Source: Candidatus Woesebacteria bacterium (GTDB taxonomy: Bacteria; Patescibacteriota; Microgenomatia; UBA8517). From it: a stretch of DNA of 64,000 bases. Location: NCBI GenBank assembly GCA_963716475.1, contig OY970314.1, positions 918,508-982,507 on the forward strand. The letters are read 5' to 3'. The position numbers and the translations under genes are program-made. This document shows positions 32,037-45,684 of the stretch, one piece after another. Position 1 is the stretch's first letter, and each line of letters begins with the position of its first letter. A model generated the notes under the pieces. That model worked only from the letters and a program-made list of their open reading frames with translations. It did no database searches and was not told the DNA's origin.

Positions 32037-32858
32037 ATGAAGAAACAGGGAAGTAAAATCGACGAGGCTTCGACCTCACAAATTAAAATTAACGTTCCCA
32101 CAGAGGGTAATCTTTTACTGGAAAAAGTTTTAAACCAGGTTAATTCTAACCGGGAAATAAAGACTCTCTGGAGAATAATAAACGTAAACGCGATAGAGCG
32201 TCTTGGTTTTACCGATCACGGACCGACCCATTTTAATCTGGTAGCAAACCATGGTCTTAAAATCGCGCGGATTTTGGAAAAAAGGGGAATTACCATGTCA
32301 ATTGTGCATGATTTTGGTCTGACCAATGATCATGCAGAGGTAGTAATTTTTTTGGGGTGCATAATGCATGACCTGGGAATGAGTATCCATAGGGAAAACC
32401 ATGAAATTTTTAGCCTTTTTATAGCTAGGGACTTTATGAAAGAAATTCTGAGCTTTATGCCCATTGAGGAAAGAACGGTCGTAATTTCCGAAACTCTCCA
32501 TGCAATCATAAGCCACAGCCACGGAAGCGCAGGCAAAACCTCAACCGTTGAAGGAGGAATCGTAAGAGTTGCGGACGCTCTCGATATGAGTAAAGGCCGT
32601 AGCAGGATCCCCTATAGAATGGGCAAGATTGATATTCACTCGGTTTCGGCAAACGCGATCGAGAGTGTGACGGTTAAGGAGGGGGAGGGAAAACCTGTTG
32701 ATATTGAGATTGTAATGACAACCGAAGCCGGAGTTTTTCAGGTTGACGATTTTATCGAGGAAAAATTAGAGACTTCGGGCTTAGCCAAATATGTTGATGT
32801 CAAATCATTTTTGAAGGAACACGGGAGTAAGAGGGTCTACAAGGATTACACTTCTTAA
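32037..32858 (+). CDS. HD domain phosphohydrolase
   Basis: H...HD...H metal ligands (TDHGPTHF, CIMHDLG). Confidence 0.6.
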   Translation: MKKQGSKIDEASTSQIKINVPTEGNLLLEKVLNQVNSNREIKTLWRIINVNAIERLGFTDHGPTHFNLVANHGLKIARILEKRGITMSIVHDFGLTNDHAEVVIFLGCIMHDLGMSIHRENHEIFSLFIARDFMKEILSFMPIEERTVVISETLHAIISHSHGSAGKTSTVEGGIVRVADALDMSKGRSRIPYRMGKIDIHSVSANAIESVTVKEGEGKPVDIEIVMTTEAGVFQVDDFIEEKLETSGLAKYVDVKSFLKEHGSKRVYKDYTS

Positions 32859-33232
32859 TCTGCCAAAATCAGCTTGACTTTCTCGGTAAGTTGATCCGGA
32901 TTGACGTCGGTTTTGAGGATGACATCTTTAGCTCCAAGACTAATGCCTTCTTTAAGAATCGGGTCGTGGGAGAGGTTTGTCAGAAGGAAGATATTTTTGT
33001 TAGGGACTTTAGGAGGAGTTTTTTTAAGCTCGCCAAGAAGCGCTATGCCATCCATTTTAGGAAGCATGACATCGAGAAGTACCAGATCATAGCCACCTTC
33101 CCGGCATTTAGTCAGTCCCTCAGCTCCGTCAACCGCCGCCTCCACCTTAAAACCTGCTTTTGTAAGAATTGTTTGGTAGAGGTTTCTGGTATTTTGATCG
33201 TCTTCTACAATCAAGATTCTTTTATTGCTCAT
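32855..33232 (-). CDS. Response regulator, receiver domain only
   Basis: ILIVEDD and LLDVMLPKMDG. The ORF track extends to 33337. Confidence 0.75.
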   Translation of the reverse strand: MSNKRILIVEDDQNTRNLYQTILTKAGFKVEAAVDGAEGLTKCREGGYDLVLLDVMLPKMDGIALLGELKKTPPKVPNKNIFLLTNLSHDPILKEGISLGAKDVILKTDVNPDQLTEKVKLILAD

Positions 33233-33251
33233 AATTGAACCTATTATACGC

Positions 33252-35375
33252 CTACACCGAAGGAAGTGTAAAGATAAATCTTGAACCTTGCCCAGGTGTA
33301 CTTTCCACCCAAATTTTACCTCCGGAAAGCTCGACAATGTTTTTACTGATATAAAGTCCCAAGCCGGTTCCCTGCGTGCTGGGTACGTTTGTTCCGCTTT
33401 CGAGTTTGCCGAATTTGGTGAAAAGCTTGTCCATATCCTCTTTTTTAATTCCGATACCGTTATCAGTTACAGATATCTCAATCATTTTTTCTTTCGCCAA
33501 TCCAGTTATGGTTACTTTGCCCTTTGCCGGAGTAAACTTAATTGCGTTTCCGGCTAAGTTGGTTATAACCTGGTGGATACGCTCTTTATCGGCCTTAACA
33601 AAAAGACCGCCCGAAACGGTCGAACTTAGATTGATTTGCTTATCACTTGCCTGTTTTTGGAGTTCCTCAACAATTAGGTCTGCTTCATGTTTGACATCCA
33701 ATTTTTCGGGATTGAGCTCAATTCTTCCGGCTTCGATCCTGCTTACGTCCAGCATATCAGCAACCAGGGAAATACCGTGTTCAGTTGATTCCAGGGCGAT
33801 TCCCAGGTCTTCCTTGGCTTTACCCTGTGCTTTTCCAAGTTCACTTCTTGCCAGCCAAATATAGTTTTTGACGGTTGCCATAGGGCTTCGAAGGTCATGA
33901 CTTGCGATTGAAATGAACTCGTCCTTGACCTGATCTAGTTTTTTAAGCTTTTCGTTTGCCGATTGCAGTTCACCGGTTGCCCGTTTTACTTCTTGCTGTA
34001 GGGTGACATTAAACCGGCTTATCTGCTCAAATCTCTGCGCATTCTCCAAAGCGATTGAAAGTTCCGGACCTAGAATTGAAAGAAAGTTAACATCCTGATC
34101 AAAAAAGATCTCTCCTGAAGACTTTTCTCCAAGAAGGAGAAGCCCCACGAAACGCTCTTTGGTTGAAAGGGGGAGTGCCAGGAAAATATCTTTTTCGCGC
34201 AAAAAATCTTTCAGCGGGCCCTCTTCCATTTCGTCAAGGATAAGTAATTTTTTAGGATCTGCCATTTTCCTGACGTCACCACTACTGATGTCTAAACGCT
34301 TACCTTGGTGTTGACTTTCAATAATGTATATTTCTTTACCATTAATAATTGCGAAGGCAGCTTTTGTGAGCCTGAGTTCTCTGGTTATGATCGTTAGCAC
34401 CCGGAGAGCAAGATCATCAAGAGTAAGCGACGTAGCCATAGTCTTTGATAGTTTATTAAGAACAACCTCGGTTTCATATCTTTCTTTAAAAAATATTTTA
34501 TCTGTTGTTTTTTCCAGTAGACCCCGGAGCGGTTGAAAAGTGTATGCAATGACCAGAGCAAGAATGGTTGAACTTATCAAACTTGAGGCGGGAGTTGATG
34601 TTTTTGTAATCAGACTGGAAACGATAAAAAGTCCGCTCGAATATATAACCCCAAGTATTATCAGAAGAAGTGAATAAGAGACTGACCTTGCGATAATTAA
34701 GCGGATATCAAAAAGCCTGTGTCTGACAATGGCGTAAGTCACGGCAACGATTAAGATGAGACTGTAATTGGGTCCCAGGAAAACCAAACTTGTGATCCTG
34801 AAGACGACAACGAAAGAAAATGTTGTTATAAAAGCTAAAACAAAAGCTATGATAAGTCCCAGAAGCATGAATTTAACCTGCTCTTTGACAACGCTGTTGC
34901 CCCGATGCAATTTTCTTAACAGGATAATCATGGTACCTATTAAATGGGAAGCACCATGAAGACCGAAAAGTAAGATTGCCGGCCCCGGCACCGGAGTTAT
35001 CTGACCGTTAGTCAGAATTGCGTGAGAGAAAATCAGCGGGGTAAGGCAAAAGAAAGTTATTACAGCAGTCCAAACGATATCAGAAAGTATAAATATTTTA
35101 TTTATTGAGGGACTGCTTTCCGGAAAATTAAGAGAAAAATGTAGGATAACAGTTAATAGGAGAGAAGTTGTAGCCATAATAATCCTGATCCAGAAAATGG
35201 CTTCTTCAGGATTAATAGTTTTTAAAGAAAAGTAATTGGCGACACTCCAAGCAGAAACAATAAATGTGAGGAGTATAAATAAAATGTTGGTTTTGCGTTT
35301 GGGATTTTTTAGGAATACAATGAGCCCGAGAATTAAGTTAGCAAAAACAGTAAATATGGTAACCGCGATATCCAT
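33252..35375 (-). CDS. Sensor histidine kinase with a polytopic N-terminal domain
   Basis: At least six N-terminal TM helices, a GAF-like middle region, HisKA ASHDLRSP, and HATPase GTGLGLYISK. Confidence 0.8.
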   Translation of the reverse strand: MDIAVTIFTVFANLILGLIVFLKNPKRKTNILFILLTFIVSAWSVANYFSLKTINPEEAIFWIRIIMATTSLLLTVILHFSLNFPESSPSINKIFILSDIVWTAVITFFCLTPLIFSHAILTNGQITPVPGPAILLFGLHGASHLIGTMIILLRKLHRGNSVVKEQVKFMLLGLIIAFVLAFITTFSFVVVFRITSLVFLGPNYSLILIVAVTYAIVRHRLFDIRLIIARSVSYSLLLIILGVIYSSGLFIVSSLITKTSTPASSLISSTILALVIAYTFQPLRGLLEKTTDKIFFKERYETEVVLNKLSKTMATSLTLDDLALRVLTIITRELRLTKAAFAIINGKEIYIIESQHQGKRLDISSGDVRKMADPKKLLILDEMEEGPLKDFLREKDIFLALPLSTKERFVGLLLLGEKSSGEIFFDQDVNFLSILGPELSIALENAQRFEQISRFNVTLQQEVKRATGELQSANEKLKKLDQVKDEFISIASHDLRSPMATVKNYIWLARSELGKAQGKAKEDLGIALESTEHGISLVADMLDVSRIEAGRIELNPEKLDVKHEADLIVEELQKQASDKQINLSSTVSGGLFVKADKERIHQVITNLAGNAIKFTPAKGKVTITGLAKEKMIEISVTDNGIGIKKEDMDKLFTKFGKLESGTNVPSTQGTGLGLYISKNIVELSGGKIWVESTPGQGSRFIFTLPSV

Positions 35376-35384
35376 AATTAATTT

Positions 35385-36647
35385 ATGATAGAAAGAGAAA
35401 ATAATAAAGACAATAGCCTAGGCATGTTTTCCCCCCGTATTTTTGACGCAAGAGATGCTTTTGATGGGGGGCAAATGGTTCGTGAGGGAGAAAATTACCG
35501 CATAAAACTTCCTGATGGTGAACAAACCATAACCTCGGATCATATCCATGACTTACTATCGGCAACGATGATGGGTATTAATGAAGCTTTTGTTGACGCG
35601 GAGTCAGGGATTGATTTAAGAGAAGAATATGAGCATGAGTCGGCTATTTATGATGCCTCGGTAATAGCAAATGGTGGAGACACTTATGGGACGTGGGTTT
35701 ATTACCCATATGATAAAGATTTAGTGCATTTTGCACCAAAAAGGCTTCACAAACTTGCCCTTCTTGCATGTAATTCATCGCTTTTAATGGATCCGGACCG
35801 AAATCTCGACTACAACCAAATAAGGAAAGTGTTTGATAACGTAGTTCCGGCGATAGCAGGCCTAAGTGTGGGGTCGAATATTGGGAAAGCGATTATAGCC
35901 GATATTCGTCCGGATGCTGTCAAAGTGTCCGATCCCGCACCCTTTAAACTTACCAATGCCAATCGAGTAGCCGGTTTGGGTTACACCGACTTGGTTACTT
36001 CCAGAGGCAATATGGGGTCAAATTTGGGAAGTTTAAACGGATCGAGAGAGAAACAACAAGTTTTTACCTTGGACATACTATCCCAGGACCCTTACATGAA
36101 CGTATTTTCCTATAAAGGTATTGACGGGAGTAATGTTAAGGAATTCCTAGGCGGGGGAAGTAAGGAACCTAAAGCAACCGTAGCCATAGATGTTTGCGAT
36201 AGTATAGATGTTAAGATGCAGTTGGCTGTAGAGGCGAGAAAGCAGGGGATAAGGTTTCTGCGTTTTACTGATGCAGGTTCTACGGTTAGAGTCGATATAC
36301 GTCCTTTTGACACGAACCCGGAAGCTTCTTTGGCCTATGGAATTACTGATGAGGAACTGTTTGATCTGCTAGCCAAAGCCGGAACTTCAAAGTCGGGTTT
36401 CTATAAATTTGGAAGCGCCCTGATTGGTAAAGATTCTCTTGAAAGAGGGGATGAATTTGGAGGTTTAGTAAGAGGAGAAATTTCTAAACAGTACTCCAGT
36501 GTTCCACAGCTAGGTTCAACAGCCATGGTAGCCGGTGGACTCGCAGGAGAAATCGTTGCAAGAATGGCATTAGGTTATAAATACCCGGAAAGATTTGTGG
36601 TGGATTTAGTAAATCTCAAATTTGAGTCTTGGGGTGAACAGGTTTAA
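35385..36647 (+). CDS. E1-like (ThiF/MoeB/MccB family) adenylyltransferase-fold protein with a ~130-aa N-terminal extension
   Basis: Rossmann-like AGLSVGSNIG, then VKVSDPAPFKLTNANR (E1 D-x-D...N-R). C-terminal AGGLAGEIVARMALG pattern. Confidence 0.5.
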   Translation: MIERENNKDNSLGMFSPRIFDARDAFDGGQMVREGENYRIKLPDGEQTITSDHIHDLLSATMMGINEAFVDAESGIDLREEYEHESAIYDASVIANGGDTYGTWVYYPYDKDLVHFAPKRLHKLALLACNSSLLMDPDRNLDYNQIRKVFDNVVPAIAGLSVGSNIGKAIIADIRPDAVKVSDPAPFKLTNANRVAGLGYTDLVTSRGNMGSNLGSLNGSREKQQVFTLDILSQDPYMNVFSYKGIDGSNVKEFLGGGSKEPKATVAIDVCDSIDVKMQLAVEARKQGIRFLRFTDAGSTVRVDIRPFDTNPEASLAYGITDEELFDLLAKAGTSKSGFYKFGSALIGKDSLERGDEFGGLVRGEISKQYSSVPQLGSTAMVAGGLAGEIVARMALGYKYPERFVVDLVNLKFESWGEQV

Positions 36648-37776
36648 TTAACACTTCTTCAATTGGAAGTCTGGGTGAATGAGGAGGAATTTCAAGATCC
36701 GGTCTTGGGTAACCTGCCCTAAAAAGTATCGCGGGAGTACCGTGCCATAATGATATTGCAGAAAGACCAAATCTAGTGAGGGAAACTTCAGCCAAACCCG
36801 CATGAACTGCATAAGACAATCCTTGTGAGGTAAGTTTAAGCCCTATCTTACCAAGAAGCTCGCCGCTTTTTAGCCAATATTCCGGCGTATCTTTGTCAAC
36901 TGTTATCATACCCGTTATCGCCGATGAACGAATACCCAATATAGAACCCCTTGAAAAGGCAGAAATATCATCAGCTTCCAGTTTTTCTTTTCCTAAAAGT
37001 GCGTTCTTGGTATGTCTGGCTTGTGTGTCGTCCATGCCGAATGTATCACCAGGCATTCCCAACGGATCTTTAGTGTTGTTTTCCTGAAGCCAGTCACCAA
37101 GCTCACGGCGGAAGGATTTGAGATTAGCCACAACCGTGTCGGCTGCCCCCTGAAATTCTGCAATCGTAGGGATTATTGGATCACCCGCTTTAAGTAAAAA
37201 TAAACGTGTCCCATCACCTTCCAAAGCCCCTATTTCCGTGAGTAATTCACCAGGGATTGTTTTGGACGTATCGGTTATATTTCTGTTGACCCTTCTTGTG
37301 AATATCGATGCAAAAAGATCTTTATCAGAAGCGGCAACCGAAGGATTAAAACCGATTTGACATAGTTTTACATAACGGTTTTTGTCGTCCGGTTGTTTAT
37401 AGGGTAGAACCTGTGACGGATCAACCTGTTCATTTTCGGTGGTGGCTTCGAGACCAAAGTGAGACGCTGCCACCTGGACATTAGTTAAAGCCGCCCCGAC
37501 ACTTATTACAGCCTGTCTGCCTCTTACATCAGATGCAGGAAGAACCCGATCTCTGTCGAGATAAAGTGTGATAGAGGAATCTTTTTCATCCGGTGAAAAT
37601 GCCCATGGCTGAGTGTTATGAGAACTTGGAGCCATGTGTGCAAGGGTTGTAAAATATATAAGCTTTTCTCCTACAGGAAGTGACTCAAATTGTTCATGAG
37701 TTAAGTTTGGAGTGCGCCAGATATCATAGTTAGGGCCATCTTTAATGTCGATTGAGTCGTTTCGTTCTATGGTCAT
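36616..37776 (-). CDS. Nitroreductase-superfamily (FMN-dependent, SagB/McbC-like fold) protein, 386 aa
   Basis: Hallmark APSSHNTQPW. About twice the length of simple nitroreductases. Confidence 0.55.
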   Translation of the reverse strand: MTIERNDSIDIKDGPNYDIWRTPNLTHEQFESLPVGEKLIYFTTLAHMAPSSHNTQPWAFSPDEKDSSITLYLDRDRVLPASDVRGRQAVISVGAALTNVQVAASHFGLEATTENEQVDPSQVLPYKQPDDKNRYVKLCQIGFNPSVAASDKDLFASIFTRRVNRNITDTSKTIPGELLTEIGALEGDGTRLFLLKAGDPIIPTIAEFQGAADTVVANLKSFRRELGDWLQENNTKDPLGMPGDTFGMDDTQARHTKNALLGKEKLEADDISAFSRGSILGIRSSAITGMITVDKDTPEYWLKSGELLGKIGLKLTSQGLSYAVHAGLAEVSLTRFGLSAISLWHGTPAILFRAGYPRPDLEIPPHSPRLPIEEVLIKPVHPKTQI

Positions 37777-38489
37777 GCTTTGTTATTAGGAACAACTCTA
37801 TAAAGGGCAGACCCGGTTGTCCAATATCCGGGAAATGTTTCAAAAACCGATTTGGCGTAAAGGTCATCAGTTGACTCATTCGCTTCGGATATCCTGATGA
37901 TAGTAGCTCCGGAATCTTCACCAAACTTGGCGACATGCGGAGCCATAATTGTAAAGATTTGATCGGAGAATCCCTCTTTTGATGCTAAAGTGTATGAGGT
38001 GCTGAGGATATCCTTAAGAATTTCCAGACGCGTTTGTTTTGGGAGTAGGGGGTTGATTGTAAGTGAAGCGATTGAACCAACCATGGCATCAGTCGGCCAG
38101 GAATGATTTTTAGTTAATACCATAGCCTCAATGGGTAAATTTTCTCCTGGTTTATACATACCCCATTCAAGTTTAAAAAAACCTGCCAAATTTTTGTAAT
38201 TCCTCAATTCAGGTTCAATCTTTTTCAAATGTTCAGTTGCCGGAGATTTAAAAAGACGCTCGGCATCTCCCGTTGCGGTAATGTAGACATTTTTTTTGTC
38301 GGACTCTTGATACAGTTTGGATAGTAGGCTTGACTCACGGGGAGCAACCGGTTGTGGAATTCCATTATTAGTATAAGTGGAGTAGACAAGTTCCTGCAAC
38401 CTCTCCGATGAAGGGGTTAAACTTGCGAATTCGTCCGAAGACAAAATTTTAACCTCAAATTTTGACGGTTGAAGCGACTCCGGTGACAT
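37773..38489 (-). CDS. Hypothetical protein, co-operonic with the nitroreductase-like gene (4-nt overlap)
   Basis: ORF only. Confidence 0.45.
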   Translation of the reverse strand: MSPESLQPSKFEVKILSSDEFASLTPSSERLQELVYSTYTNNGIPQPVAPRESSLLSKLYQESDKKNVYITATGDAERLFKSPATEHLKKIEPELRNYKNLAGFFKLEWGMYKPGENLPIEAMVLTKNHSWPTDAMVGSIASLTINPLLPKQTRLEILKDILSTSYTLASKEGFSDQIFTIMAPHVAKFGEDSGATIIRISEANESTDDLYAKSVFETFPGYWTTGSALYRVVPNNKA

Positions 38490-38584
38490 ACGTAATAGAA
38501 TATCATTTAACTGTTATTGCACAAGTGGGGGATCAAGCACTTTATTTATATTTATTCCGCCTTCTTTGGATGTTACAATGAGAT

Positions 38585-40279
38585 ATGCCCCTGACTGAAA
38601 ATCAGATAATTAGTTTAGTTAAAAAAAGCGGCCTGCTTCTCTTGGATGAAAGTACGATTGCCAAAGCCGAGGCCTATGCTGCCAACACGAAAACAACAAG
38701 TCTCCTGACATCTCTCATAGAATGCGGAGCCGTTACCGAAGATCAACTTTCAGCCGTAATAGCCGGATATTACAAGGTCCCCTATATAACTCTATCGAAA
38801 GTTTCCATACCTGAAGATGTTGCCCATATAATTCCGGAAAGAGTAGCCAGAAAACAGAAGGCAATAGCTTTTGCCCGAGATGAGACGGGGGTAAAAGTTG
38901 CCATGAATGATCCTACCAACCAGACAATTGTCTCCCTAGTTTCCCGGAAAACCGGGATGAAAGTGACGGTTTACTATGCGGGCAGCTCAGACATAGAGGG
39001 AACGATTCAACTTTATAAAAAGGCACTTCAAAAAACTATCGACGAGCTTCTTAAAGAGTATGTAAAACAGGCAACACTTTATCAGGGAGACTTACCCATA
39101 ATTAAAGTAGTTGATGTTCTTGTAAACACCGCCTATCAGGACAGAGCCAGCGATATTCATATCGAACCTGAAGAAAAAACTTCCCTAATCCGTTTTAGAA
39201 TAGACGGGGTTTTGCAAGATGTCCTCAGGGTTCCGAAGGAGATTCACGACAGGGTAATTTCGAGAATAAAAGTTTTATCAAACCTTAGGACGGATGAGCA
39301 TCTTAGTGCCCAGGACGGCAAAATGGTTGAGAAACTGGAGGAGGAGAATTTGGATATCCGTGTCTCAATTATTCCGGTAACCGAGGGAGAAAAAGCCGTT
39401 TTAAGACTTCTTTCGGGACACTCCCGGGAATATACACTAAGTGATCTGGGGATGAATCCCGGCGATTTGCAAAAAGTTACAAATGCATTCAACAGGAGCT
39501 ATGGGATGATTCTTTCAACCGGACCGACCGGGAGTGGAAAAACTACGTCAATTTATGCGATTTTAAAAATTTTAAATACCCGTGAGAAAAACATCATGAC
39601 TATTGAGGATCCTGTAGAATACAGAATTCTTGGGGCGAACCAGGTGCAGGTTAATGCCAAGACGAATTTAACTTTTGCCAATGGGCTACGGTCAATTCTG
39701 AGGCAAGACCCGAATGTTATTTTTGTCGGTGAGATCAGGGACAGCGAAACTGCCGGAATTGCAGTCAATGCAGCCCTAACGGGGCATCTTGTACTGTCTA
39801 CCCTGCATACGAATGACGCAGCAACGGCAATTCCGCGTTTAACTGATATGAAAGTTGAGCCGTTTCTCGTCGCCTCGACGGTGAACATAATTATTGCTCA
39901 AAGATTAGTAAGGCAGATATGTTCTTCCTGTAAGGTTGAGGAAAAAATAACTATTTCCGAGATCAAAAAGCACTTTCCGCAAAATCTTGTTCAGAAATAT
40001 TTTGGTACGACAGGTGAGGTAACAATTCATAAAGGAAAAGGGTGTAAGATCTGTAGGCAAACAGGATATTTGGGCCGGGTCGGACTTTTTGAAGTTTTGG
40101 AAGTGACCAAAAATATAAGGAAACTATTGTCAGAGAAAGTTGACTCGGATATCATTGCCCAGGCGGCTATTCAAGAGGGGATGCAGACGATGCTTGAAGA
40201 CGGTTTGGAAAAGATAACCACAGGGTTAACCACGGTCGAAGAGGTTATCAGAGTGACAAAGGTAGAGACTTTACAATAG
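38585..40279 (+). CDS. pilB: Type IV pilus assembly ATPase PilB (GspE family)
   Basis: GspE_N region, Walker A GPTGSGKTT, Asp/His boxes, and a tetracysteine motif. Confidence 0.85.
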   Translation: MPLTENQIISLVKKSGLLLLDESTIAKAEAYAANTKTTSLLTSLIECGAVTEDQLSAVIAGYYKVPYITLSKVSIPEDVAHIIPERVARKQKAIAFARDETGVKVAMNDPTNQTIVSLVSRKTGMKVTVYYAGSSDIEGTIQLYKKALQKTIDELLKEYVKQATLYQGDLPIIKVVDVLVNTAYQDRASDIHIEPEEKTSLIRFRIDGVLQDVLRVPKEIHDRVISRIKVLSNLRTDEHLSAQDGKMVEKLEEENLDIRVSIIPVTEGEKAVLRLLSGHSREYTLSDLGMNPGDLQKVTNAFNRSYGMILSTGPTGSGKTTSIYAILKILNTREKNIMTIEDPVEYRILGANQVQVNAKTNLTFANGLRSILRQDPNVIFVGEIRDSETAGIAVNAALTGHLVLSTLHTNDAATAIPRLTDMKVEPFLVASTVNIIIAQRLVRQICSSCKVEEKITISEIKKHFPQNLVQKYFGTTGEVTIHKGKGCKICRQTGYLGRVGLFEVLEVTKNIRKLLSEKVDSDIIAQAAIQEGMQTMLEDGLEKITTGLTTVEEVIRVTKVETLQ

Positions 40280-40280
40280 T

Positions 40281-41342
40281 ATGAAGGATAAGAATAAAGG
40301 AATAAGGCTAAGTAGCAGTGAAAAGATTGCTTTAATCAGCAATTTAAGCACAATGCTTACGGCAGGGATTCCAATTCTGGACGCCGTAAGTAATCTTTTG
40401 GAGGATGCCAAGGGAAATCAGAAAAAGATACTGGATACTCTCAGCGACGATCTGACACAGGGGCACCAGGTAAATTACACCCTGGCACGGTTTCCCAATG
40501 TATTTGATAAAGTCACGGTAAATGTCGTCCGGGCCTCAGAAACTGCAGGGACACTGGATGTTATCTTGAAGGATCTAAGAGAGAATTTAAGAAAACAAAA
40601 TGAATTTAGTGACAAGATAAAATCTGCGCTTCTTTATCCGATATTTATCATTTCGGTTTTCATTTTGGTGCTTCTCATTAATTTAATCTTTGTTATACCA
40701 AAAGTCGCCCAGGTATTTAAGAGTCTTAGAGTTCCGCTTCCACTACCCACAAAGATACTGATATTTGCTTCCGATCTGATGGTTAAAAATACTATTCCTT
40801 TCCTTTTTGGCGTAGGAGCAATAGTTCTGGTTCTAATTTATTTATTTACCCAAAAGAGGTCGATGATTTTAAATGTGTTTTATTCTCTTCCTGTGGTTTC
40901 AGACACAATCAAACTAATTGACGTGACTCAGTTTTCCAGAAGCCTCTATCTTCTTATTAACTCCGGAATCTCGATAGTTTCAGCCTTGGAATTAACGGAG
41001 GATATAGCCATGCGCCGCCAAACAAAGCAGGTCATAGAGACCTCCAAAAATATGATATTGGGAGGAAAAACTTTTTCGGAAGGCCTCCGAACAGGGAAGG
41101 GCTATTTCCCGATACTTATGATAAAACTTGTGGAAACCGGAGAGAAAACCGGGACTCTCGATAAGTCTCTCAATGATATTGCCGAATATTTTGACTACGA
41201 AGTGACGAATAAATTAAAGACTCTGACTGCTCTTTTGGAACCGATCATGCTTGTTGTAGTCGGGATATGTGTAGGGGGGATGATGATTGCAATAATTGCA
41301 CCAATATATTCCCTGATTAGCCAAGTGGGAACTGTTCACTAA
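40281..41342 (+). CDS. pilC: Type IV pilus platform protein PilC (GspF family)
   Basis: Two T2SS_F repeats and three TM segments. Confidence 0.8.
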   Translation: MKDKNKGIRLSSSEKIALISNLSTMLTAGIPILDAVSNLLEDAKGNQKKILDTLSDDLTQGHQVNYTLARFPNVFDKVTVNVVRASETAGTLDVILKDLRENLRKQNEFSDKIKSALLYPIFIISVFILVLLINLIFVIPKVAQVFKSLRVPLPLPTKILIFASDLMVKNTIPFLFGVGAIVLVLIYLFTQKRSMILNVFYSLPVVSDTIKLIDVTQFSRSLYLLINSGISIVSALELTEDIAMRRQTKQVIETSKNMILGGKTFSEGLRTGKGYFPILMIKLVETGEKTGTLDKSLNDIAEYFDYEVTNKLKTLTALLEPIMLVVVGICVGGMMIAIIAPIYSLISQVGTVH

Positions 41343-41806
41343 TGAAAAAAGGCTTCACTATTATTGAGCTACTTGTGTCCATCGGAATTCTAACGATTCT
41401 TTTTGCGCTTACTACTATTAATATAACCAGACTTCCTTCAAGCGCCTCCCAGAGCTCAAGCTATGACAGACTTATATCGGACCTGAGGGGTCAGCAAACC
41501 AAAGCCATGGCCGGATTTAATCCTGCCACAGGAGCCACGACAGGAAGTGCTTTCGGGGTATATTTTGATGCAACTACCAATAGCTACACTCTTTTTACCG
41601 GATCAAATTACTCTGCGGGTGATGCGAACAATTTCAAAGTTGATTTGGATCCAAACCTGACGTTTACAAATATAACATTTCCAAGTTCGCAGGTTGTTTT
41701 TGCGGCAGGTTCCGGAGACACGGTTAGCGGCGGCGCGTCGATAACAAATACACTTACCGGGGATGTCAAAATCCTAAAACTAAATATATATGGAGCGACA
41801 GAATAA
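41342..41806 (+). CDS. Prepilin-type minor pilin
   Basis: MKKG|FTIIELLV class III signal with Glu at +5. Confidence 0.65.
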   Translation: MKKGFTIIELLVSIGILTILFALTTINITRLPSSASQSSSYDRLISDLRGQQTKAMAGFNPATGATTGSAFGVYFDATTNSYTLFTGSNYSAGDANNFKVDLDPNLTFTNITFPSSQVVFAAGSGDTVSGGASITNTLTGDVKILKLNIYGATE

Positions 41807-43613
41807 CAAAGGACAGGTAATAGTAGAGCTCTTGGTTGCGTTTGGGCTGGCCGGGGTTCTTCTTCCGGCGCTTCTCACAGGTCTTATTGCTTCCCAAAAC
41901 GGGAAAGTGCAGCAGGAGCAAAGAATTGTGGCTGTAGGACTTCTAAGGGAAGGGGAGGAGGCGGTAAGAAGCGTCAGAGAAGCAGACTGGGCGTATATTG
42001 CCGCCTTAGACAGTACCAAAACTTATCACCCCGTTGCCGGTGCAACAAGTTGGAGCCTGCAGCTTAATTCCGAAACAATCGGGGACTTTACAAGATCAAT
42101 TAAAGTCAGCGATGTTAGCCCGACAGACCCTTCTTTAAGAAAGATTACCGTAACCGTTCACTGGAGCAGTATTTTACCGACTGATGCTACCTCTACATTT
42201 TTTCTGTCACGCTGGAAAAATTTAACAAGCGATCTTATAGCTTCGGGGACTTTAATTAATCAGGGTAATGGAGACTGGTGTACGCCCTCTCTAACACTTG
42301 GGAGCGTGGATTTGGGTAATGCAACAGCTAAATCAATTAGTGCTATTCAAGGCCGTATTGCAACAGGCACAGGAGGCGCTGCGGCTGGCTATACTTTTGC
42401 TAATGTCGACCTTACCGATCCTCCTGCACCGGCTACACCTTCAGGTACAACCACAGTTTACAATGGTCCAGATAAGACAAACGATGTATTTACTCTGCAA
42501 AATTATGCATTTATTGCGACAGATAGTCATACAAAAGATATTGATATTATAAATTTGGGTAGCACATCCGGAGGACAATATGTAGAAGCCGGCTTTTTTA
42601 ATTCCCCAAATAACGGAAGTGCTAATGCAGGTACTGTTGTTGCCAACCCGACTGTTGGTTATATGACAATCGGAAACATGCTTTATGACTTCTCGTTATC
42701 CGGTTTGCCGAACGCTTTGGTATCTCGAACTGCGGTTCATCCGGCCGGTTTACAGCTTCCGGCGCCTGCAACCAAAATGGTTATTTTAGGTAACAGACTT
42801 TATATTTCGACATCCGGCACGACTTATCAATTAGTTGTAGTAGATGCTACTACTTTAACTTTTATTTCAAAACCAACATTAACCCCAGGCAAGATCCATG
42901 TCAACGGTCTGGGAGGCAAGTCTGTTTATGTTGATCCGCTTACAGGAACGCGCGCTTATTTGGCGACAGCAAACTCAGCAACCCTTAAAGAGATGTTTAT
43001 TATTAACACTGATGAAACATCAGCGGGTTATGGACAAACTGTGGGGTCATATGATACGGGTGCGATGAACCCAACAGGTATAGTTCTTGTGAATTTGCCA
43101 ATTGTTGTTATTGTCGGAACAGGGGGAGAACAGTATCAGGTAGTTAGGGTAGACAATGAGGCCAGCCCGGTAAGATGCAACCCCAGTGGATTAAATACAG
43201 GAGATCTTAACGGTATCGCAACAGTGTTTACAGCTGCCCAGCGTGCCTATTCGTATATTATTACGGATGCCAATAACAACCAGGTTAAGATAATTGAGGG
43301 AGGACCCGGAGGAAGCGGAACCGGGGGAGGGGTAACCGTTGAATCCCCAATACTTGATGCGGGCCACACATCGACATTTAACAGAATTTCGATAACTAGC
43401 CTCACCCCTGAAGGAATAACCGCGATTTATCAGGTGGCCGTATCAACCGATTGCTTAACTTTTAACTATACGGGAAGCTACACTTCCGCGGGTGGACCAA
43501 TACCTTTAAGTATTAATCCGGGAAGGTGTTTCAGATATAAAGTAACTTTTAGCGGAGGGTCGGGTGTCGGAACAGTAGCATCGACGACGGTTAAGGTAAA
43601 TTATTCCCCGTAG
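41790..43613 (+). CDS. Large (607-aa) pilin-like protein, putative pilus tip adhesin
   Basis: Prepilin N-terminus KG|QVIVELLV with Glu at +5, followed by a roughly 550-aa beta-rich Gly/Thr-rich domain. Confidence 0.55.
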   Translation: MERQNNKGQVIVELLVAFGLAGVLLPALLTGLIASQNGKVQQEQRIVAVGLLREGEEAVRSVREADWAYIAALDSTKTYHPVAGATSWSLQLNSETIGDFTRSIKVSDVSPTDPSLRKITVTVHWSSILPTDATSTFFLSRWKNLTSDLIASGTLINQGNGDWCTPSLTLGSVDLGNATAKSISAIQGRIATGTGGAAAGYTFANVDLTDPPAPATPSGTTTVYNGPDKTNDVFTLQNYAFIATDSHTKDIDIINLGSTSGGQYVEAGFFNSPNNGSANAGTVVANPTVGYMTIGNMLYDFSLSGLPNALVSRTAVHPAGLQLPAPATKMVILGNRLYISTSGTTYQLVVVDATTLTFISKPTLTPGKIHVNGLGGKSVYVDPLTGTRAYLATANSATLKEMFIINTDETSAGYGQTVGSYDTGAMNPTGIVLVNLPIVVIVGTGGEQYQVVRVDNEASPVRCNPSGLNTGDLNGIATVFTAAQRAYSYIITDANNNQVKIIEGGPGGSGTGGGVTVESPILDAGHTSTFNRISITSLTPEGITAIYQVAVSTDCLTFNYTGSYTSAGGPIPLSINPGRCFRYKVTFSGGSGVGTVASTTVKVNYSP

Positions 43614-43634
43614 AACGGGGCAAGCACCATTGTT

Positions 43635-44084
43635 ATGAATACTAACAAATATAAACGACAAAAAGGAGTCACAATTGTTGAACTCATTGTTTATATCGGC
43701 CTTCTTTCAATTTTTATGCTTGTCCTTGTCGATGTTTTTGTGACAATTCTTAACGCCAAACTTGAGAGTGAAAGCACATCAACCTTAAACCAGGACGCGC
43801 GCTATGTTTATTCAAAAATGGCTTATGATGTTGCGAATGCAAGTTCATTTACTGTTCCAAATCCGACCACGCTTGTAATAGGGCCAAAAACTTATACTTT
43901 AAGTGGCGGCGACCTAACGCTTAATTCTATAAAACTCAACGGTCTCGATACAAAAATTGACAGTATTAATTTCACCAAGATTGGGAATACGGTAAAAACA
44001 ACTTTTACAATTGAATCTCTGGTTAAATTACAGTCTGGGGTTCAAACCAGAACTGTCGATACGACTTTCGGACTAAGACCATGA
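43635..44084 (+). CDS. Prepilin-type minor pilin
   Basis: KG|VTIVELIVYIGLL. Confidence 0.6.
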   Translation: MNTNKYKRQKGVTIVELIVYIGLLSIFMLVLVDVFVTILNAKLESESTSTLNQDARYVYSKMAYDVANASSFTVPNPTTLVIGPKTYTLSGGDLTLNSIKLNGLDTKIDSINFTKIGNTVKTTFTIESLVKLQSGVQTRTVDTTFGLRP

Positions 44085-44494
44085 AAAATAAAAATCTTTC
44101 AGCGAGCTCAGGACAGGCCCTTATAATGCTGCTATTTTTTGTCATGATCGGAATTACGATTACGACCACCGCAATTATTATCATCGCGGGCAATTCTTTG
44201 GCGGCAAACGATGTTCAGCAGGAGGAAATAACACGTGAGATGGCGGAAACAGGGGCAGAAAAGGGGATTCTTCAGGTTTTGAGGAACGGGAACACATATT
44301 CCGGTGAAACCCTGACAAATGCAAATATTTCCAATTGGGAAAGCGGATGGAATGTTGTAATTACGGTAAGTGGAACCACCACACTGACCATCGATTCGAA
44401 AGCTACAGCCGGTAACTATGTTAAAAAAGTTGAAGTTACTGCCGGATATGTTGATAATGAATTAACGTTAAATACATGGAAGGAGATAAATTAA
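44081..44494 (+). CDS. PilX/pseudopilin-like membrane-anchored protein
   Basis: SG|QALIMLLFFVMIG hydrophobic N-terminus without Glu at +5. Confidence 0.4.
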   Translation: MKNKNLSASSGQALIMLLFFVMIGITITTTAIIIIAGNSLAANDVQQEEITREMAETGAEKGILQVLRNGNTYSGETLTNANISNWESGWNVVITVSGTTTLTIDSKATAGNYVKKVEVTAGYVDNELTLNTWKEIN

Positions 44495-45157
44495 ATGGCT
44501 GATGGAGGACGGGAGGCGTTAATATTTTTAGATAAGAACCGTGTTTTTGTCTATGACGGCAATGGGATTTTAAGGCTTGATATTCCGGAAACCGTAATCA
44601 GGGACGTTGATATTATTGATAAAAGCGGATTTGACAGCTTGGTTGACAGCTTTATAAAGACCAGAAAACTGGCTCCGAGTCAGGTTTGGCTGGTTTTGGC
44701 AGACGGAATATGTTTTAGTAAAGATATCGTCGAAACCGATCCTTTGAAAATTGAGGGTGACGTTAAAGATTTTCTTGAGGCTGTTCCTTTTGATAAGGTT
44801 ATATCAAAAAGATACAGATCAGGAACGGGGATCAGGGTAATAGCTACTAATTTGGAATATATTGAAGCTCTGGTAGAGATTTTTGATAAAGACGGGTTTG
44901 TGACGGAGGGGATCGTGCCGGGCGCGATGTTTCCGGGATTTGCCACCAGAAAAGTCCTAGACGCAGATTTTGCCAGGTATATTCTTGGAAACAAAAGCCT
45001 GATGAGGACTGGCAACATGCTTACAAAAATTGCCTTACCGGTTAGTACTCCCGAAGCCCCGGAGGCTCATAAAAAGAGCAAGCTTTTGCCATACCTTATT
45101 GGCGGATTTACAATACTTCTTATTATTCTGGTTGTGGTGATCATGAGGGGAAAGTAA
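44495..45157 (+). CDS. Pilus assembly protein, PilM-like N-terminal domain with a C-terminal TM anchor
   Basis: Position within the pilus operon, a C-terminal TM, and weak PilM-like N-terminal pattern. Confidence 0.3.
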   Translation: MADGGREALIFLDKNRVFVYDGNGILRLDIPETVIRDVDIIDKSGFDSLVDSFIKTRKLAPSQVWLVLADGICFSKDIVETDPLKIEGDVKDFLEAVPFDKVISKRYRSGTGIRVIATNLEYIEALVEIFDKDGFVTEGIVPGAMFPGFATRKVLDADFARYILGNKSLMRTGNMLTKIALPVSTPEAPEAHKKSKLLPYLIGGFTILLIILVVVIMRGK

Positions 45158-45213
45158 AGTTGATCCGGAAAATACCACTTGACATGATATTTGTAATGCT
45201 CTAACTTAGATTA

Positions 45214-45684
45214 ATGCCTAAGAAATACTCCGGTTTTACATTAATAGAACTTCTGGTAGTTATCGGAATCTTGGGTATTCTTCTTGCGATTGTCCTTATT
45301 GCCATTAACCCGGCCAGGCAGTTTGCCCAAGCGAATAACACGGCCAGGAGAAGTGATGTTACAACCCTTCTTAACGCGATTCATCAATATGCCGCTGATA
45401 ATAAAGGTAATTTGCCGACCCACATGCCGAAAGCGGCAGACGGCGTAGTAGCGATCGCGACCGGTGGCACAGCGAGCGTTGGCGACATTTGTAAGGACAT
45501 TTCTCCCACCTATGTTTCTGCGCTACCCACTGATCCGTCGTTGAATACTTCGGCCGTTACTGATTGTACTACTTATGCGACCGGGTATAGTGTGGCAGTA
45601 GATTCGGCCGGAAGAGTGACTGTATCTGCTCCGTCTGCCGAAAAGATTGGAGACACAACTCCGGTAATCTCGGTAACAAGGTAA
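45214..45684 (+). CDS. pilA: Major type IV pilin
   Basis: SG|FTLIELLVVIGILGIL canonical prepilin N-terminus, followed by a strong terminator. Confidence 0.8.
   Translation: MPKKYSGFTLIELLVVIGILGILLAIVLIAINPARQFAQANNTARRSDVTTLLNAIHQYAADNKGNLPTHMPKAADGVVAIATGGTASVGDICKDISPTYVSALPTDPSLNTSAVTDCTTYATGYSVAVDSAGRVTVSAPSAEKIGDTTPVISVTR

What the first reader, a model, noticed from the sequence alone, without database searches (positions are those of the whole stretch)
35385..38489. Orphan E1-like (ThiF/MccB-type) enzyme convergent with a large nitroreductase-fold protein plus an unknown partner. Candidate peptide or small-molecule modification system.
ORF 35385-36647 has the E1/ThiF signatures: Rossmann GLSVGSNIG, D-x-D...NANR, and a C-terminal AGGLAGEIVARMALG pattern. 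It also has an extra ~130-aa N-terminal domain like the peptide-clamp or RRE domains of MccB and McbB/SagC-type enzymes. Its 3' end overlaps, convergently, a 386-aa protein carrying the nitroreductase FMN-fold hallmark APSSHNTQPW, the fold used by SagB/McbC azoline dehydrogenases. That gene is co-operonic (ATGA overlap) with a 238-aa unknown. E1-like plus FMN dehydrogenase is two thirds of a TOMM/LAP cassette, but no YcaO and no precursor peptide gene is visible. This could be a novel YcaO-independent modification system, an MccB-like C-terminal adenylation system, or unrelated neighbours. It sits between a two-component system and the pilus operon.
Basis: partly seen in the sequence, partly recalled or inferred. 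Interest (0 to 1): 0.6.

Follow-up and report, generated by a model that had tools for sequence, protein, structure and literature searches.

The report
Oxazolone-type lipid cassette wired to sensor kinase
The three genes are a split, highly divergent version of the known bacterial pathway that turns an N-acylated amino acid into an oxazolone (azlactone) lipid, and here and in dozens of related metagenomic loci it always travels with its own seven-helix membrane sensor kinase, which hints that these poorly understood molecules are signals.

Summary
The three ORFs are real and the motifs are present. The TOMM/MccB reading is not supported. The E1-like protein (35385-36647) and the 386-aa protein (36616-37776) match the N- and C-terminal halves of one NCBIfam model, Rv1355c/TrzS. 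TrzS is a ThiF-cyclase::flavin-oxidase fusion shown experimentally to make N-acyl oxazolones (TyzACB, TrzAS, OxzAB). The 238-aa protein belongs to a family of 123 cluster representatives. Its canonical branch hits Pfam FeeM (N-acyl amino acid synthase) and occurs naturally fused to this E1 family. The window's own branch has lost the Glu/Arg block and hits nothing directly. The locus is therefore best read as a split oxazolone / N-acyl-dehydroamino-acid cassette, a known kind not reported from CPR-like genomes. The new element is the neighbouring HisKA_7TM-GAF histidine kinase, here with a receiver-only regulator. It is co-inherited with the enzymes in all 10 other distinct neighbourhoods. In the reciprocal test, 30 of 37 loci chosen only by the kinase sensor domain carry the enzymes. 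The starter enzyme is interchangeable: NAS-like, PaaK-like ligase, or an unknown ~375-aa family. Product and signalling role are inferred, not shown.

The parts
32855..33232 (-). Receiver-only response regulator (125 aa), with no output domain. The maximal ORF from a TTG start reaches 33337, but the REC domain and the homologs begin at the ATG at 33232, 19 nt after the kinase stop.
   Evidence: Pfam Response_reg at 3e-24. Translation. Orthologs lie next to the kinase in 8 of 11 neighbourhoods and in 10 of 37 kinase-seeded loci under a strict threshold.
33252..35375 (-). Sensor histidine kinase (707 aa) with an N-terminal 7-TM sensor (HisKA_7TM, residues 6-224), a GAF-like region (about 318-445), HisKA and HATPase_c. 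It is divergent from the E1 gene, with only 9 nt between the two start codons.
   Evidence: Pfam. Full-length orthologs, including the 7TM sensor, are adjacent to E1/FDO in all 10 other distinct neighbourhoods and are often better conserved than the enzymes. In the reciprocal test, 30 of 37 loci chosen by the sensor domain alone carry E1 and/or FDO.
35385..36647 (+). ThiF/E1-like ATP-dependent adenylating enzyme (420 aa) and predicted oxazolone-forming cyclase (counterpart of TyzB or the TrzS N-half). It carries a family-specific N-terminal domain of about 140 aa. Adenylation motifs are G159-L-S161-V-G163, D183, N191-A-N193-R194, K223 and D272. It has no CxxC motif.
   Evidence: NF005901 (Rv1355c family) positions 60-335 of 722 at 6e-20, with no MoeB/ThiF model hit. 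Model pLDDT 90.3. Foldseek hits ThiF 1zud at 1e-10 with TM 0.78 on the target. The family profile's best PDB sequence hit is TcdA, the oxazolone-forming t6A dehydratase, at 5e-13, with the motifs aligned. Invariant residues are listed.
36616..37776 (-). [quoted passage not shown] Conserved blocks are AxSxHNxQPW, LPxSD..GRQ, RRxNR, GMPG and HSPR.
   Evidence: NF047509 full length at 2.4e-53. NF005901 positions 379-646 of 722 at 1e-18. PDB 2ymv (MsAcg) full length at 3e-14. The same family is adjacent to every E1 homolog examined.
37773..38489 (-). 238-aa protein, a divergent member of a FeeM/LuxI-clan N-acyl amino acid synthase-like family and the predicted supplier of the N-acyl amino acid substrate. 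It belongs to a sub-branch in which the Glu and Arg of the 'G-E-x-G-R-F' block are replaced (G138-S-I-A-S-L). The gene is translationally coupled to the FDO gene through a 4-nt overlap.
   Evidence: The family has 123 representatives. FeeM or Acetyltransf_5 Pfam hits occur in 8 and 6 of the 46 strongest relatives but in 0 of 20 members of its own sub-branch. The sub-branches are homologous at hhalign 99.8%, E 1e-27. Natural NAS-like::E1 fusions are P0115 and P0130. The structure model is poor, pLDDT 49.
38490..38584 (.). A 95-nt intergenic region shared by the divergent 238-aa/FDO operon and the pilB operon. It is the only sizeable non-coding stretch in the cassette.
   Evidence: Sequence. No Rfam match. 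No convincing promoter-like site was called here.

Best explanation
The locus is a five-gene module. Three genes form a split version of the oxazolone (azlactone) / N-acyl-dehydroamino-acid pathway known from OxzAB, TyzACB and TrzAS.

Inferred chemistry:
1. The 238-aa FeeM-related protein N-acylates an amino acid.
2. The E1-like enzyme uses ATP to adenylate the free carboxylate. The amide oxygen then attacks to close a 5(4H)-oxazolone ring.
3. The Acg-type FMN oxidase introduces the alpha,beta double bond.
4. The oxazolone may persist or hydrolyse to an N-acyl-dehydroamino acid.

The divergently transcribed 7TM-GAF histidine kinase is a dedicated, co-inherited partner of the two enzymes. Here it comes with a receiver-only regulator. 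The most likely logic is that the kinase's membrane sensor detects the lipophilic product or its precursor. The alternative is that the kinase gates production of that molecule. Either way, the cassette would be a small-molecule signalling or stress circuit rather than bulk lipid synthesis.

Shown here: the homologies, the fusions and the co-inheritance. Inferred: the substrate, the product, the order of steps, and what the kinase senses.
For: 1. The E1-like protein and the FDO hit the two halves of one NCBIfam model, Rv1355c = TrzS. TrzS is experimentally a ThiF-cyclase::FDO oxazolone synthase (PMC12856293). The split form TyzB + TyzC + TyzA is also characterised (PMC10404671).
2. The E1 model is high confidence and has a ThiF fold. 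All adenylation motifs are invariant, including D272, the counterpart of the ThiF adenylation-motif Asp that was mutated in TrzS as D217A. The closest solved sequence relative is TcdA, itself an oxazolone-forming cyclodehydratase.
3. The FDO is a full-length Acg-type protein with conserved FMN-site blocks.
4. E1 and FDO are adjacent in 9 of the 10 other distinct neighbourhoods recovered through E1 homologs, at 26-53% E1 identity and with at least 5 different gene orders. The tenth is L007/L008, where the pair is also present; the further locus L020 is IS-disrupted and shows no FDO.
5. The 238-aa family is homologous to a canonical branch with FeeM/Acetyltransf_5 hits. That branch occurs fused to this same E1 family. 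Bona fide FeeM or Autoind_synth genes occupy the same position in L007 and L020.
6. For the kinase, full-length orthologs lie beside the enzymes in all 10 other neighbourhoods. In the reciprocal test, 30 of 37 loci seeded on the sensor domain carry E1 and/or FDO, and most of the negatives are contig-edge cases.
7. The papers themselves raise signalling as a possible role and call the physiological role unresolved.
Against: - No member of the window's own sub-branch of the 238-aa family hits FeeM directly (0 of 20). That sub-branch has also replaced the Glu/Arg block conserved in the canonical branch, so its acyltransferase activity is uncertain.
- Its structure model is poor (pLDDT 49), and the fold search gave nothing significant.
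- The FDO scores best against the 'Acg family' model, which is named after FDO-B enzymes that the literature does not link to oxazolones. I could not place it in the FDO-A versus FDO-B subclusters.
- Characterised FDOs use O2 and characterised acyltransferases use acyl-CoA. From general knowledge, not tested here, CPR-type organisms are mostly anaerobic and lack fatty-acid synthesis, so donor and oxidant are unclear.
- In most related loci the starter gene is not NAS-like. It is a PaaK-like ligase or an unknown ~375-aa protein, so the common substrate class is not established.
- Some PaaK-type loci lack a detectable FDO (L032, L054, L057).
- Adjacency cannot distinguish 'the kinase senses the product' from 'the kinase regulates the pathway'.
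- The regulator has no DNA-binding domain and is not universal in the related loci.
Confidence: 0.6

Rival explanations
1. The E1-like enzyme and the Acg-type oxidase act on a different carboxylate substrate that is not an N-acyl amino acid. The 238-aa protein would be a non-catalytic or differently acting relic of the FeeM fold. The module would be a stress or redox-responsive pathway placed under two-component control, as acg/Rv3131 are under DosRS in M. tuberculosis.
For: The catalytic block is lost in the window's sub-branch, which has no direct FeeM hit. The FDO's best model is named for the Acg family. The paper describes the FDO-B genes as part of the two-component DosR regulon. The starter gene is interchangeable, and most loci carry non-NAS partners.
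Against: Both enzymes hit the two halves of the TrzS model. Co-occurrence with ThiF is the stated hallmark of the oxazolone-type FDO-A group, not of FDO-B. NAS-like::E1 fusions exist. Canonical FeeM or Autoind_synth genes occupy the same slot in L007 and L020. The alternative partner, a PaaK-like ligase, is also an acyl-activating enzyme. The regulator lacks a DNA-binding output.
Confidence: 0.22
2. This is a RiPP-type system (TOMM/LAP-like or MccB-like). The E1-like protein would bind a ribosomal peptide through its N-terminal domain and adenylate or cyclodehydrate it, and the flavoprotein would oxidise the resulting heterocycle.
For: E1-like enzymes with N-terminal peptide-binding domains do exist (MccB, PaaA), and they appear among the structural hits at about 1e-9. 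The N-terminal domain of about 140 aa is unexplained.
Against: There is no YcaO and no precursor ORF, and the only intergenic gaps are 9 nt and 95 nt. No TOMM, SagB or cyclodehydratase NCBIfam model was hit at E<=1. The flavoprotein is Acg-type. MccB and PaaA are not closer than ThiF in fold, and TcdA is far closer in sequence. The partners are acyltransferase- or ligase-type genes, not peptides.
Confidence: 0.05
3. These are unrelated neighbours: a housekeeping MoeB/ThiF-type sulfur-carrier activating enzyme, a generic nitroreductase, and a two-component system that happens to be adjacent.
For: Some relatives are auto-annotated as 'molybdopterin/thiamine biosynthesis adenylyltransferase'.
Against: No MoeB/ThiF NCBIfam hit was found. 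The protein has no CxxC motif, and no ThiS/MoaD-like gene is annotated nearby. Adjacency is conserved through many rearrangements and down to 26% identity. The reciprocal kinase test was positive. Three kinds of natural fusion exist: E1::FDO, NAS-like::E1 and type C::E1.
Confidence: 0.03

Closest known systems
TyzACB of Mycobacterium tuberculosis (Rv2336 / Rv2337c / Rv2338c), N-acyl tyrazolone biosynthesis (Grigg et al. 2023, PMC10404671)
   Same: It has the same three-protein split architecture: a FeeM/AHL-synthase-fold N-acyltransferase, a single-domain Acg-like FDO of about 340-390 aa, and a stand-alone ThiF-like ATP-dependent cyclase. The acyltransferase gene sits beside the other two.
   Different: The window's E1-like protein is 420 aa, with an extra N-terminal domain of about 140 aa; TyzB is 318 aa. 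The acyltransferase-like protein is 238 aa (TyzA is 322 aa) and belongs to a divergent sub-branch lacking the Glu/Arg block. The E1 and FDO genes are convergent rather than co-operonic. A dedicated 7TM histidine kinase and a receiver-only regulator are attached. The host is a small-genome, CPR-like organism. The product is unknown.
TrzAS (Rv1356c / Rv1355c) and OxzAB (Pseudoalteromonas rubra), ThiF::FDO fusion oxazolone synthetases (PMC12856293; bioRxiv 10.1101/2020.06.11.147165)
   Same: The window's E1-like protein and FDO align to the N- and C-terminal halves of the Rv1355c family model. The adenylation Asp is conserved. The closest solved FDO is MsAcg 2ymv, as reported for TrzS.
   Different: Here the two domains are separate genes on opposite strands. 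Scores are far below the family cut-off (71 and 67 bits against 476), so these are distant relatives and not orthologs. No kinase association is described for trzAS; the authors note only neighbouring c-di-GMP genes.
NasY-ThiF-nitroreductase clusters for N-acyl-dehydrotyrosines (stieleriacines, thalassotalic and kyonggic acids; PMC12479983)
   Same: They have the same gene trio. They show that the end product may be the open-chain N-acyl-2,3-dehydroamino acid rather than the oxazolone.
   Different: These clusters are described from Planctomycetota, Pseudomonadota and Actinomycetota. They carry extra methyltransferases, and no kinase was mentioned in the passages I searched.
TcdA/CsdL, tRNA t6A dehydratase (PDB 4d7a)
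   Same: It is the closest solved sequence relative of the E1 family (5e-13). It is also a ThiF-like enzyme that closes an oxazolone ring by ATP-dependent dehydration.
   Different: TcdA acts on tRNA, has no FDO partner, and lacks the N-terminal extension. Only the Rossmann core aligns (profile positions 149-300).
LuxI/LuxR-type and LuxM/LuxN-type acyl-homoserine-lactone quorum sensing
   Same: Both pair a GNAT/LuxI-clan acyltransferase that makes a lipophilic, hydrolytically labile ring-containing acyl-amino-acid derivative with a dedicated receptor gene next door. In LuxN the receptor is a polytopic membrane histidine kinase (the LuxN comparison is from my own knowledge).
   Different: The chemistry differs (oxazolone versus homoserine lactone) and needs two extra enzymes. 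The sensor family differs (HisKA_7TM-GAF). There is no evidence yet that the product is secreted or sensed. This is an analogy, not a membership.

Membership tests
Oxazolone / N-acyl-dehydroamino-acid biosynthesis (OxzAB, TyzACB, TrzAS) | A ThiF-like ATP-dependent cyclase with an intact adenylation motif, including the Asp equivalent to TrzS D217. | tested here: met
   NF005901 N-half at 6e-20. ThiF fold. G159/S161/G163, D183, N191/N193/R194, K223 and D272 are invariant in the family and align to the TcdA/ThiF motifs.
Oxazolone / N-acyl-dehydroamino-acid biosynthesis (OxzAB, TyzACB, TrzAS) | A flavin-dependent oxidase (Acg-like, single-chain NTR fold) fused to or adjacent to the ThiF gene. | tested here: met
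   NF047509 at 2e-53, NF005901 C-half at 1e-18, and 2ymv at 3e-14. The FDO is adjacent in the window and in all ten other distinct neighbourhoods whose contig extends far enough.
Oxazolone / N-acyl-dehydroamino-acid biosynthesis (OxzAB, TyzACB, TrzAS) | An adjacent N-acyl amino acid synthase with a FeeM/AHL-synthase fold. | tested here: inconclusive
   Homology to a FeeM-positive branch is solid and is supported by fusions. However, the window's sub-branch has no direct FeeM hit and has lost the Glu/Arg block. Its model is too poor for a fold test.
Oxazolone / N-acyl-dehydroamino-acid biosynthesis (OxzAB, TyzACB, TrzAS) | The FDO belongs to the FDO-A group (subclusters A4, A8, A23) rather than FDO-B. 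The ThiF belongs to the TyzB/OxzB/TrzS similarity-network cluster. | not testable with these tools
   Reference sequences for TyzC, OxzB, Rv3131 and the others could not be fetched. Only indirect evidence is available: co-occurrence with ThiF is described as the FDO-A hallmark.
Oxazolone / N-acyl-dehydroamino-acid biosynthesis (OxzAB, TyzACB, TrzAS) | Production of an N-acyl oxazolone or N-acyl-dehydroamino acid. | not testable with these tools
   This requires expression and LC-MS.
TOMM / LAP (azoline-forming RiPP) cassette | A YcaO cyclodehydratase. | tested here: not met
   All genes from 32037 to 41806 are identified and none is a YcaO. No PF02624 appears among the called genes of the E1-seeded related loci.
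TOMM / LAP (azoline-forming RiPP) cassette | A SagB/McbC-type dehydrogenase and an Ocin-ThiF-like/RRE partner. | tested here: not met
   No TOMM-type NCBIfam model was hit at E<=1 by either protein, and the flavoprotein is Acg-type. The N-terminal domain has no RRE/PqqD similarity.
TOMM / LAP (azoline-forming RiPP) cassette | A precursor-peptide gene. | tested here: not met
   The only intergenic gaps are 9 nt and 95 nt. All ORFs of 40 aa or more in the region lie inside larger genes.
MoeB/ThiF housekeeping sulfur-carrier activation | Family-model match, Zn-binding CxxC pairs or a catalytic Cys, and a ThiS/MoaD partner. | tested here: not met
   No MoeB/ThiF NCBIfam model was hit at E<=1. The protein has only two Cys (C129, C271) and no CxxC. 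No small beta-grasp gene is annotated in the locus.
MccB-type peptide C-terminal adenylation | An N-terminal peptide-clamp domain and a heptapeptide substrate ending in Asn. | tested here: inconclusive
   No sequence similarity was found for the N-domain. MccB structures give TMq 0.40-0.43 at rmsd 15-17 A, no better than ThiF, which lacks the clamp (0.41-0.45). A 7-codon ORF cannot be excluded by ORF scanning, but nothing supports one.
HisKA_7TM sensor histidine kinases (Pfam PF16927) | An N-terminal 7-TM domain followed by HisKA and HATPase_c. | tested here: met
   PF16927 at 1.5e-12 (48.3 bits, cut-off 28.6), HisKA at 4e-11 and HATPase_c at 9e-32.

The most novel reading that the evidence does not exclude
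The module is a self-contained chemical signalling circuit. An interchangeable starter enzyme (NAS-like GNAT, PaaK-like aryl ligase, or the unknown ~375-aa family), the E1-like cyclase and, in most loci, the FDO desaturase would make an oxazolone or dehydro-N-acyl-amino-acid autoinducer. The dedicated 7TM-GAF histidine kinase would be its receptor. That would be the first receptor proposed for oxazolones, a new class of quorum- or host-sensing signal, and a rare example of cell-cell signalling in reduced CPR-type bacteria, here placed next to the type IV pilus genes.
Probability: 0.3. Interest if true: 0.8.

Novelty: new variant of a known kind. Interest (0 to 1): 0.55.

Why it matters
The papers that discovered bacterial oxazolones call their physiological role 'a major unresolved question' and only speculate about signalling (PMC12856293). 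This locus family offers a concrete, testable handle on that question. One specific 7TM sensor kinase is inherited together with the pathway across wide sequence divergence (E1 identity down to 26%, locus GC 31-64%), and it is often more conserved than the enzymes. If the kinase senses the product, oxazolones become a new signal class with a known receptor.

The finding also extends the pathway to CPR-type genomes. The closest organism-labelled locus is Candidatus Daviesbacteria. These organisms are thought to make few lipids or secondary metabolites.

It also reveals a modular design in which three unrelated starter enzymes feed the same E1/FDO core. One of them is an abundant family with no known function.

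Tried and rejected
- Pfam on the window proteins gave no usable hit for the E1-like or 238-aa proteins and only a sub-threshold nitroreductase hit. PADLOC defence models gave nothing.
- A single-sequence PDB search with the E1-like protein found nothing.
- The weak hit of the 238-aa protein to the MltG/YceG C-terminus (E 0.006-0.03) was rejected as noise. It is confined to residues 33-93, is not shared by relatives, and is inconsistent with the family profile.
- The weak Prok_Ub and PRTRC_C hits in the E1-like protein (E 0.02-0.11) were rejected as noise.
- The structure model of the 238-aa protein failed (pLDDT 49), and its Foldseek search gave nothing significant (best E 1.7). Many of the top 50 insignificant hits were GNAT acetyltransferases, which I count only as weak corroboration.
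- The GTDB genome scan returned only one locus, Candidatus Daviesbacteria.
- The ~375-aa accessory family has no Pfam, NCBIfam or PDB match and no hhalign relation to the NAS-like family or to FeeM.
- There was no Rfam match, and promoter-like sites were not enriched in 31-40 kb.
- The literature search for AclA, the top structural hit (PDB 9egb), found nothing relevant.

Full report
**1. Observation**

- 35385-36647 (+, 420 aa; here 'E1')
- 36616-37776 (-, 386 aa; 'FDO')
- 37773-38489 (-, 238 aa; 'P3')

E1 and FDO converge and overlap by 32 nt. The overlap comes from a C-terminal tail of about 9 residues on the FDO that its homologs lack. P3 and FDO overlap by 4 nt. The quoted motifs are present. 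The 'D-x-D' is actually S-D-P, with one Asp.

Pfam alone would have left the finding almost blank. E1 had no ThiF hit, the FDO had a sub-threshold nitroreductase hit, and P3 had nothing.

**2. What the two enzymes are**

NCBIfam gave the decisive lead.
- E1 matches positions 60-335, and the FDO positions 379-646, of the same 722-position model, NF005901 'Rv1355c family protein' (6e-20 and 1e-18).
- The FDO also matches the 'Acg family FMN-binding oxidoreductase' model end to end (2.4e-53).
- The FDO matches the solved MsAcg structure 2ymv over its full length (3e-14).

The E1 family comprises 45 proteins of about 400-440 aa, and most carry a Pfam ThiF hit.
- The window protein gave a high-confidence model (pLDDT 90.3, pTM 0.90).
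- The model matches ThiF 1zud at Foldseek E 1e-10 with TM 0.78 on the target. PaaA, MccB, UBA5 and MoeB all sit at about 1e-9.
- By sequence profile the closest solved protein is TcdA, the tRNA t6A dehydratase (4.7e-13, against 1.4e-5 for ThiF).
- In that alignment the Gly-rich loop (G159-L-S161-V-G163), D183, N191-A-N193-R194, K223 and D272 are all in register. These residues are invariant or nearly so in the family.
- According to the ThiF review (PMC12596934), TcdA is the ThiF-like enzyme that closes an oxazolone ring by ATP-dependent dehydration.
- E1 has no CxxC motif and no MoeB/ThiF family-model hit.

**3. Literature match**

Rv1355c is TrzS. [quoted passage not shown] Together with the N-acyltransferase TrzA it makes N-acyl tryptazolones. 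D217A, in the ThiF adenylation motif, abolishes cyclisation. R540A impairs desaturation (PMC12856293).

The split form is TyzACB of M. tuberculosis (PMC10404671):
- TyzA has a FeeM/AHL-synthase-like fold and N-acylates Tyr or Phe.
- TyzC is an Acg-like FDO and desaturates.
- TyzB is a ThiF homolog and cyclises with ATP.

The prototype is OxzAB of Pseudoalteromonas rubra (bioRxiv 10.1101/2020.06.11.147165). The same trio underlies N-acyl-dehydrotyrosines in Planctomycetota, Pseudomonadota and Actinomycetota (PMC12479983).

The window's E1 and FDO are therefore distant, split relatives of a characterised two-enzyme unit. They are not TOMM components.

**4. The 238-aa protein**

- The word-indexed search found only close relatives.
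- P3 is significantly similar to the unknown genes of about 250-290 aa that flank E1 in L002 and L005 (BLASTP 1e-5 and 3e-4).
- An exhaustive profile search found 123 cluster representatives.
- Scanning each member against Pfam gave FeeM (N-acyl amino acid synthase) in 12 of 121 and Acetyltransf_5 in 4. Among the 46 strongest relatives the counts were 8 and 6, and every other family was a single noise-level hit.
- The family profile's best PDB hit is the AHL synthase EsaI, at a marginal E of 0.013.

The family has two branches:
- A canonical branch (30 of 47) has a 'G-E-x-G-R-F...H-P' block.
- The window's branch (17 of 47) has the Glu and Arg replaced. In the window the block reads G138-S-I-A-S-L...N-P.
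- The branches are unambiguously homologous (hhalign 99.8%, E 1e-27).
- All FeeM hits lie in the canonical branch, with 0 of 20 in the window's branch.

P3 is thus a divergent offshoot of an N-acyl amino acid synthase-like family. Whether it is still a conventional acyltransferase is open. Its structure model was too poor to help (pLDDT 49).

Independent support for a functional link to E1 comes from two natural fusion proteins, P0115 and P0130. Each joins a canonical-branch domain to a C-terminal E1 of this same family, matching HMM positions 64-407 of 419 at E about 1e-24.

**5. Neighbourhood conservation**

I fetched contigs for ten E1 homologs with 26-53% identity to the window protein.
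- Every locus whose contig extends far enough has an Acg-family FDO beside E1. L020 is interrupted by an insertion element.
- At least five different gene orders occur, and the flanking genes are unrelated between loci.
- In L007 the gene upstream of E1 has true FeeM/Acetyltransf_5/Autoind_synth hits.
- In L020 the upstream gene has Autoind_synth/Acetyltransf_5 hits. L020 looks like Bacteroidota, judging by its Por_Secre_tail domains.
- Elsewhere the slot is filled by a PaaK-like aryl-CoA ligase (TIGR02155 at 2e-18), sometimes with an aromatic ammonia-lyase, as in L010 and L017.
- In other loci the slot holds a family of about 375 aa with no detectable relatives.
- That unknown family also occurs fused to E1, in L039/L043 (782 aa) and L048 (816 aa).

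**6. The kinase**

It is in fact the most faithful partner of the cassette.

The window kinase (33252-35375) has the architecture HisKA_7TM, a GAF-like region, HisKA and HATPase_c. In all ten other distinct neighbourhoods the adjacent kinase aligns to it over its full length, including the 7TM sensor. It is often better conserved than the enzymes. In L010 the kinase gives 2e-113, against 2e-23 for E1 and 4e-11 for the FDO.

For a reciprocal test I seeded a metagenome scan with the sensor domain alone, residues 1-450, and scored the 37 resulting loci with family HMMs.
- 30 loci carry E1 and/or the FDO next to the kinase.
- One more locus (L030) is truncated and shows only the PaaK-like gene.
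- Four of the six negatives have the kinase at a contig edge.
- The two genuine negatives (L033, L049) are the weakest kinase matches.
- Some loci are near-duplicates from different samples, so the number of independent cases is nearer 25.
- Locus GC content ranges from 31% to 64%, which suggests a broad host range.

A receiver-only regulator (125 aa in the window, 32855-33232) accompanies the kinase in 8 of 11 neighbourhoods. Under a strict threshold it is found in 10 of the 37 kinase-seeded loci.

In the window and in L001 the block of regulator, kinase, E1, FDO and P3 is intact, while the pilus operon lies on opposite sides of it. The block therefore moves as a unit, and the pilus adjacency is not conserved.

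**7. Mechanism proposed (inferred)**

1. P3, or an equivalent starter enzyme in other lineages, produces an N-acyl (or N-aryl-acyl) amino acid.
2. E1 adenylates its carboxylate, and the amide oxygen closes the oxazolone ring.
3. The FDO introduces the alpha,beta double bond.
4. The product persists or hydrolyses to the dehydro-N-acyl amino acid.
5. The 7TM sensor of the kinase is a plausible binding site for such a lipophilic, labile molecule. With a receiver-only regulator, the output would be through protein-protein interaction rather than transcription.

What is shown: the homologies, the conserved catalytic motifs, three classes of fusion (E1::FDO, NAS-like::E1, type C::E1), and bidirectional co-occurrence with the kinase.

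What is not shown: the substrate, the product, the oxidant, the activity of P3, and what the kinase senses.

**8. Caveats**

- The FDO could not be assigned to the FDO-A (oxazolone-linked) or FDO-B (Acg, DosR regulon) subclusters, because the reference sequences were not retrievable.
- P3's branch lacks the conserved Glu/Arg block.
- Characterised homologs use O2 and acyl-CoA. My own knowledge, untested here, is that CPR-type bacteria are mostly anaerobic and lack fatty-acid synthesis.
- The organism is inferred to be CPR-like from three observations. The source contig is 983 kb. Ca. Daviesbacteria is the closest organism-labelled locus. Accession numbers for the homolog P0010 are listed, and I recall (not verified here) that they belong to published CPR genome sets.
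- Some PaaK-type loci lack a detectable FDO (L032, L054, L057).

**9. Verdict**

It is wrong in its specific analogies (TOMM, MccB, RRE, 'orphan', 'YcaO-independent novelty').

The biosynthetic core is a new, very divergent member of a known kind. The hard-wired 7TM kinase and the interchangeable starter enzymes make it a new variant of that kind. It is a useful entry point to the unresolved question of what bacterial oxazolones are for.

Noticed in passing
L009:2597-3724, L012:4900-5997, L016:5760-6905, L018:5371-6489; fused forms at L039:4392-6737 and L048:12025-14472: A family of about 365-381 aa with no Pfam, NCBIfam or PDB match is the commonest accessory partner of the E1-FDO-kinase core (13 of the 37 kinase-seeded loci). 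It also occurs as a natural N-terminal fusion to the E1-like enzyme (782 and 816 aa). It is probably an unrecognised substrate-supplying enzyme.
   Followed up: partly
L010:2963-6014 and L017:2999-6014; also L026, L028, L030-L032, L047, L052, L054, L057: In a variant of the module the starter gene is a PaaK-like aryl-CoA ligase (TIGR02155 at 2e-18). In L010 and L017 it is preceded by an aromatic amino-acid ammonia-lyase (PF00221), which suggests an aryl-acyl rather than a fatty-acyl substrate. Some of these loci show no FDO.
   Followed up: partly
proteins P0115, P0130, P0148: These are natural fusions of the NAS-like domain. P0115 and P0130 are fused to the E1-like family. P0148 is fused to a FAD_binding_4 oxidase domain, which may be an alternative oxidase replacing the FDO.
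   Followed up: partly
window 5248-5320: A tRNA-Ile with anticodon TAT (UAU) lies next to two tRNA-Met(CAT) genes at 6693-6862. From my own knowledge, a UAU isoleucine tRNA is uncommon in bacteria, which usually read AUA with a lysidine-modified CAU tRNA.
   Followed up: no
L004:8497-10531: In assembly GCA_003516415.1 the orthologous kinase is split into two ORFs (492 + 189 aa), whereas it is intact (742 aa) in the near-identical L002 and L003. This may be a frameshift, a pseudogene or an assembly error.
   Followed up: no
window 41790-43613 and 46711-48300: Two large ORFs (607 aa, downstream of the pilin genes; and 529 aa, next to the SpoU methylase) have no Pfam hit. A 531-aa counterpart of the second sits in the same position in L001.
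   Followed up: no
window 38585-45684 compared with L001:1-3337: The type IV pilus operon (PilB, PilC, pilins) lies on the P3 side of the five-gene block in the window but on the regulator side in L001. The block is conserved as a unit while the pilus genes moved.
   Followed up: partly
window 35385-35800 (E1 residues 1-140): The N-terminal domain of the E1-like family is confidently folded (pLDDT mostly above 90) and is retained in the type C::E1 fusions. It has no detectable sequence relative in PDB or Pfam, and its role is unknown.
   Followed up: partly
PDB 9egb (AclA, Tenacibaculum discolor): The best structural match of the E1 model is a 2025 entry for a ThiF-type protein 'in complex with substrate'. 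I could not find its function in the paper library. It may be a closer functional analogue than ThiF.
   Followed up: partly
window 32037-32858: An HD-domain protein gene converges on the response-regulator gene and overlaps its 3' end by 4 nt. The regulator has no output domain, so an HD phosphohydrolase neighbour might be relevant. It is not conserved in the other loci I inspected.
   Followed up: no
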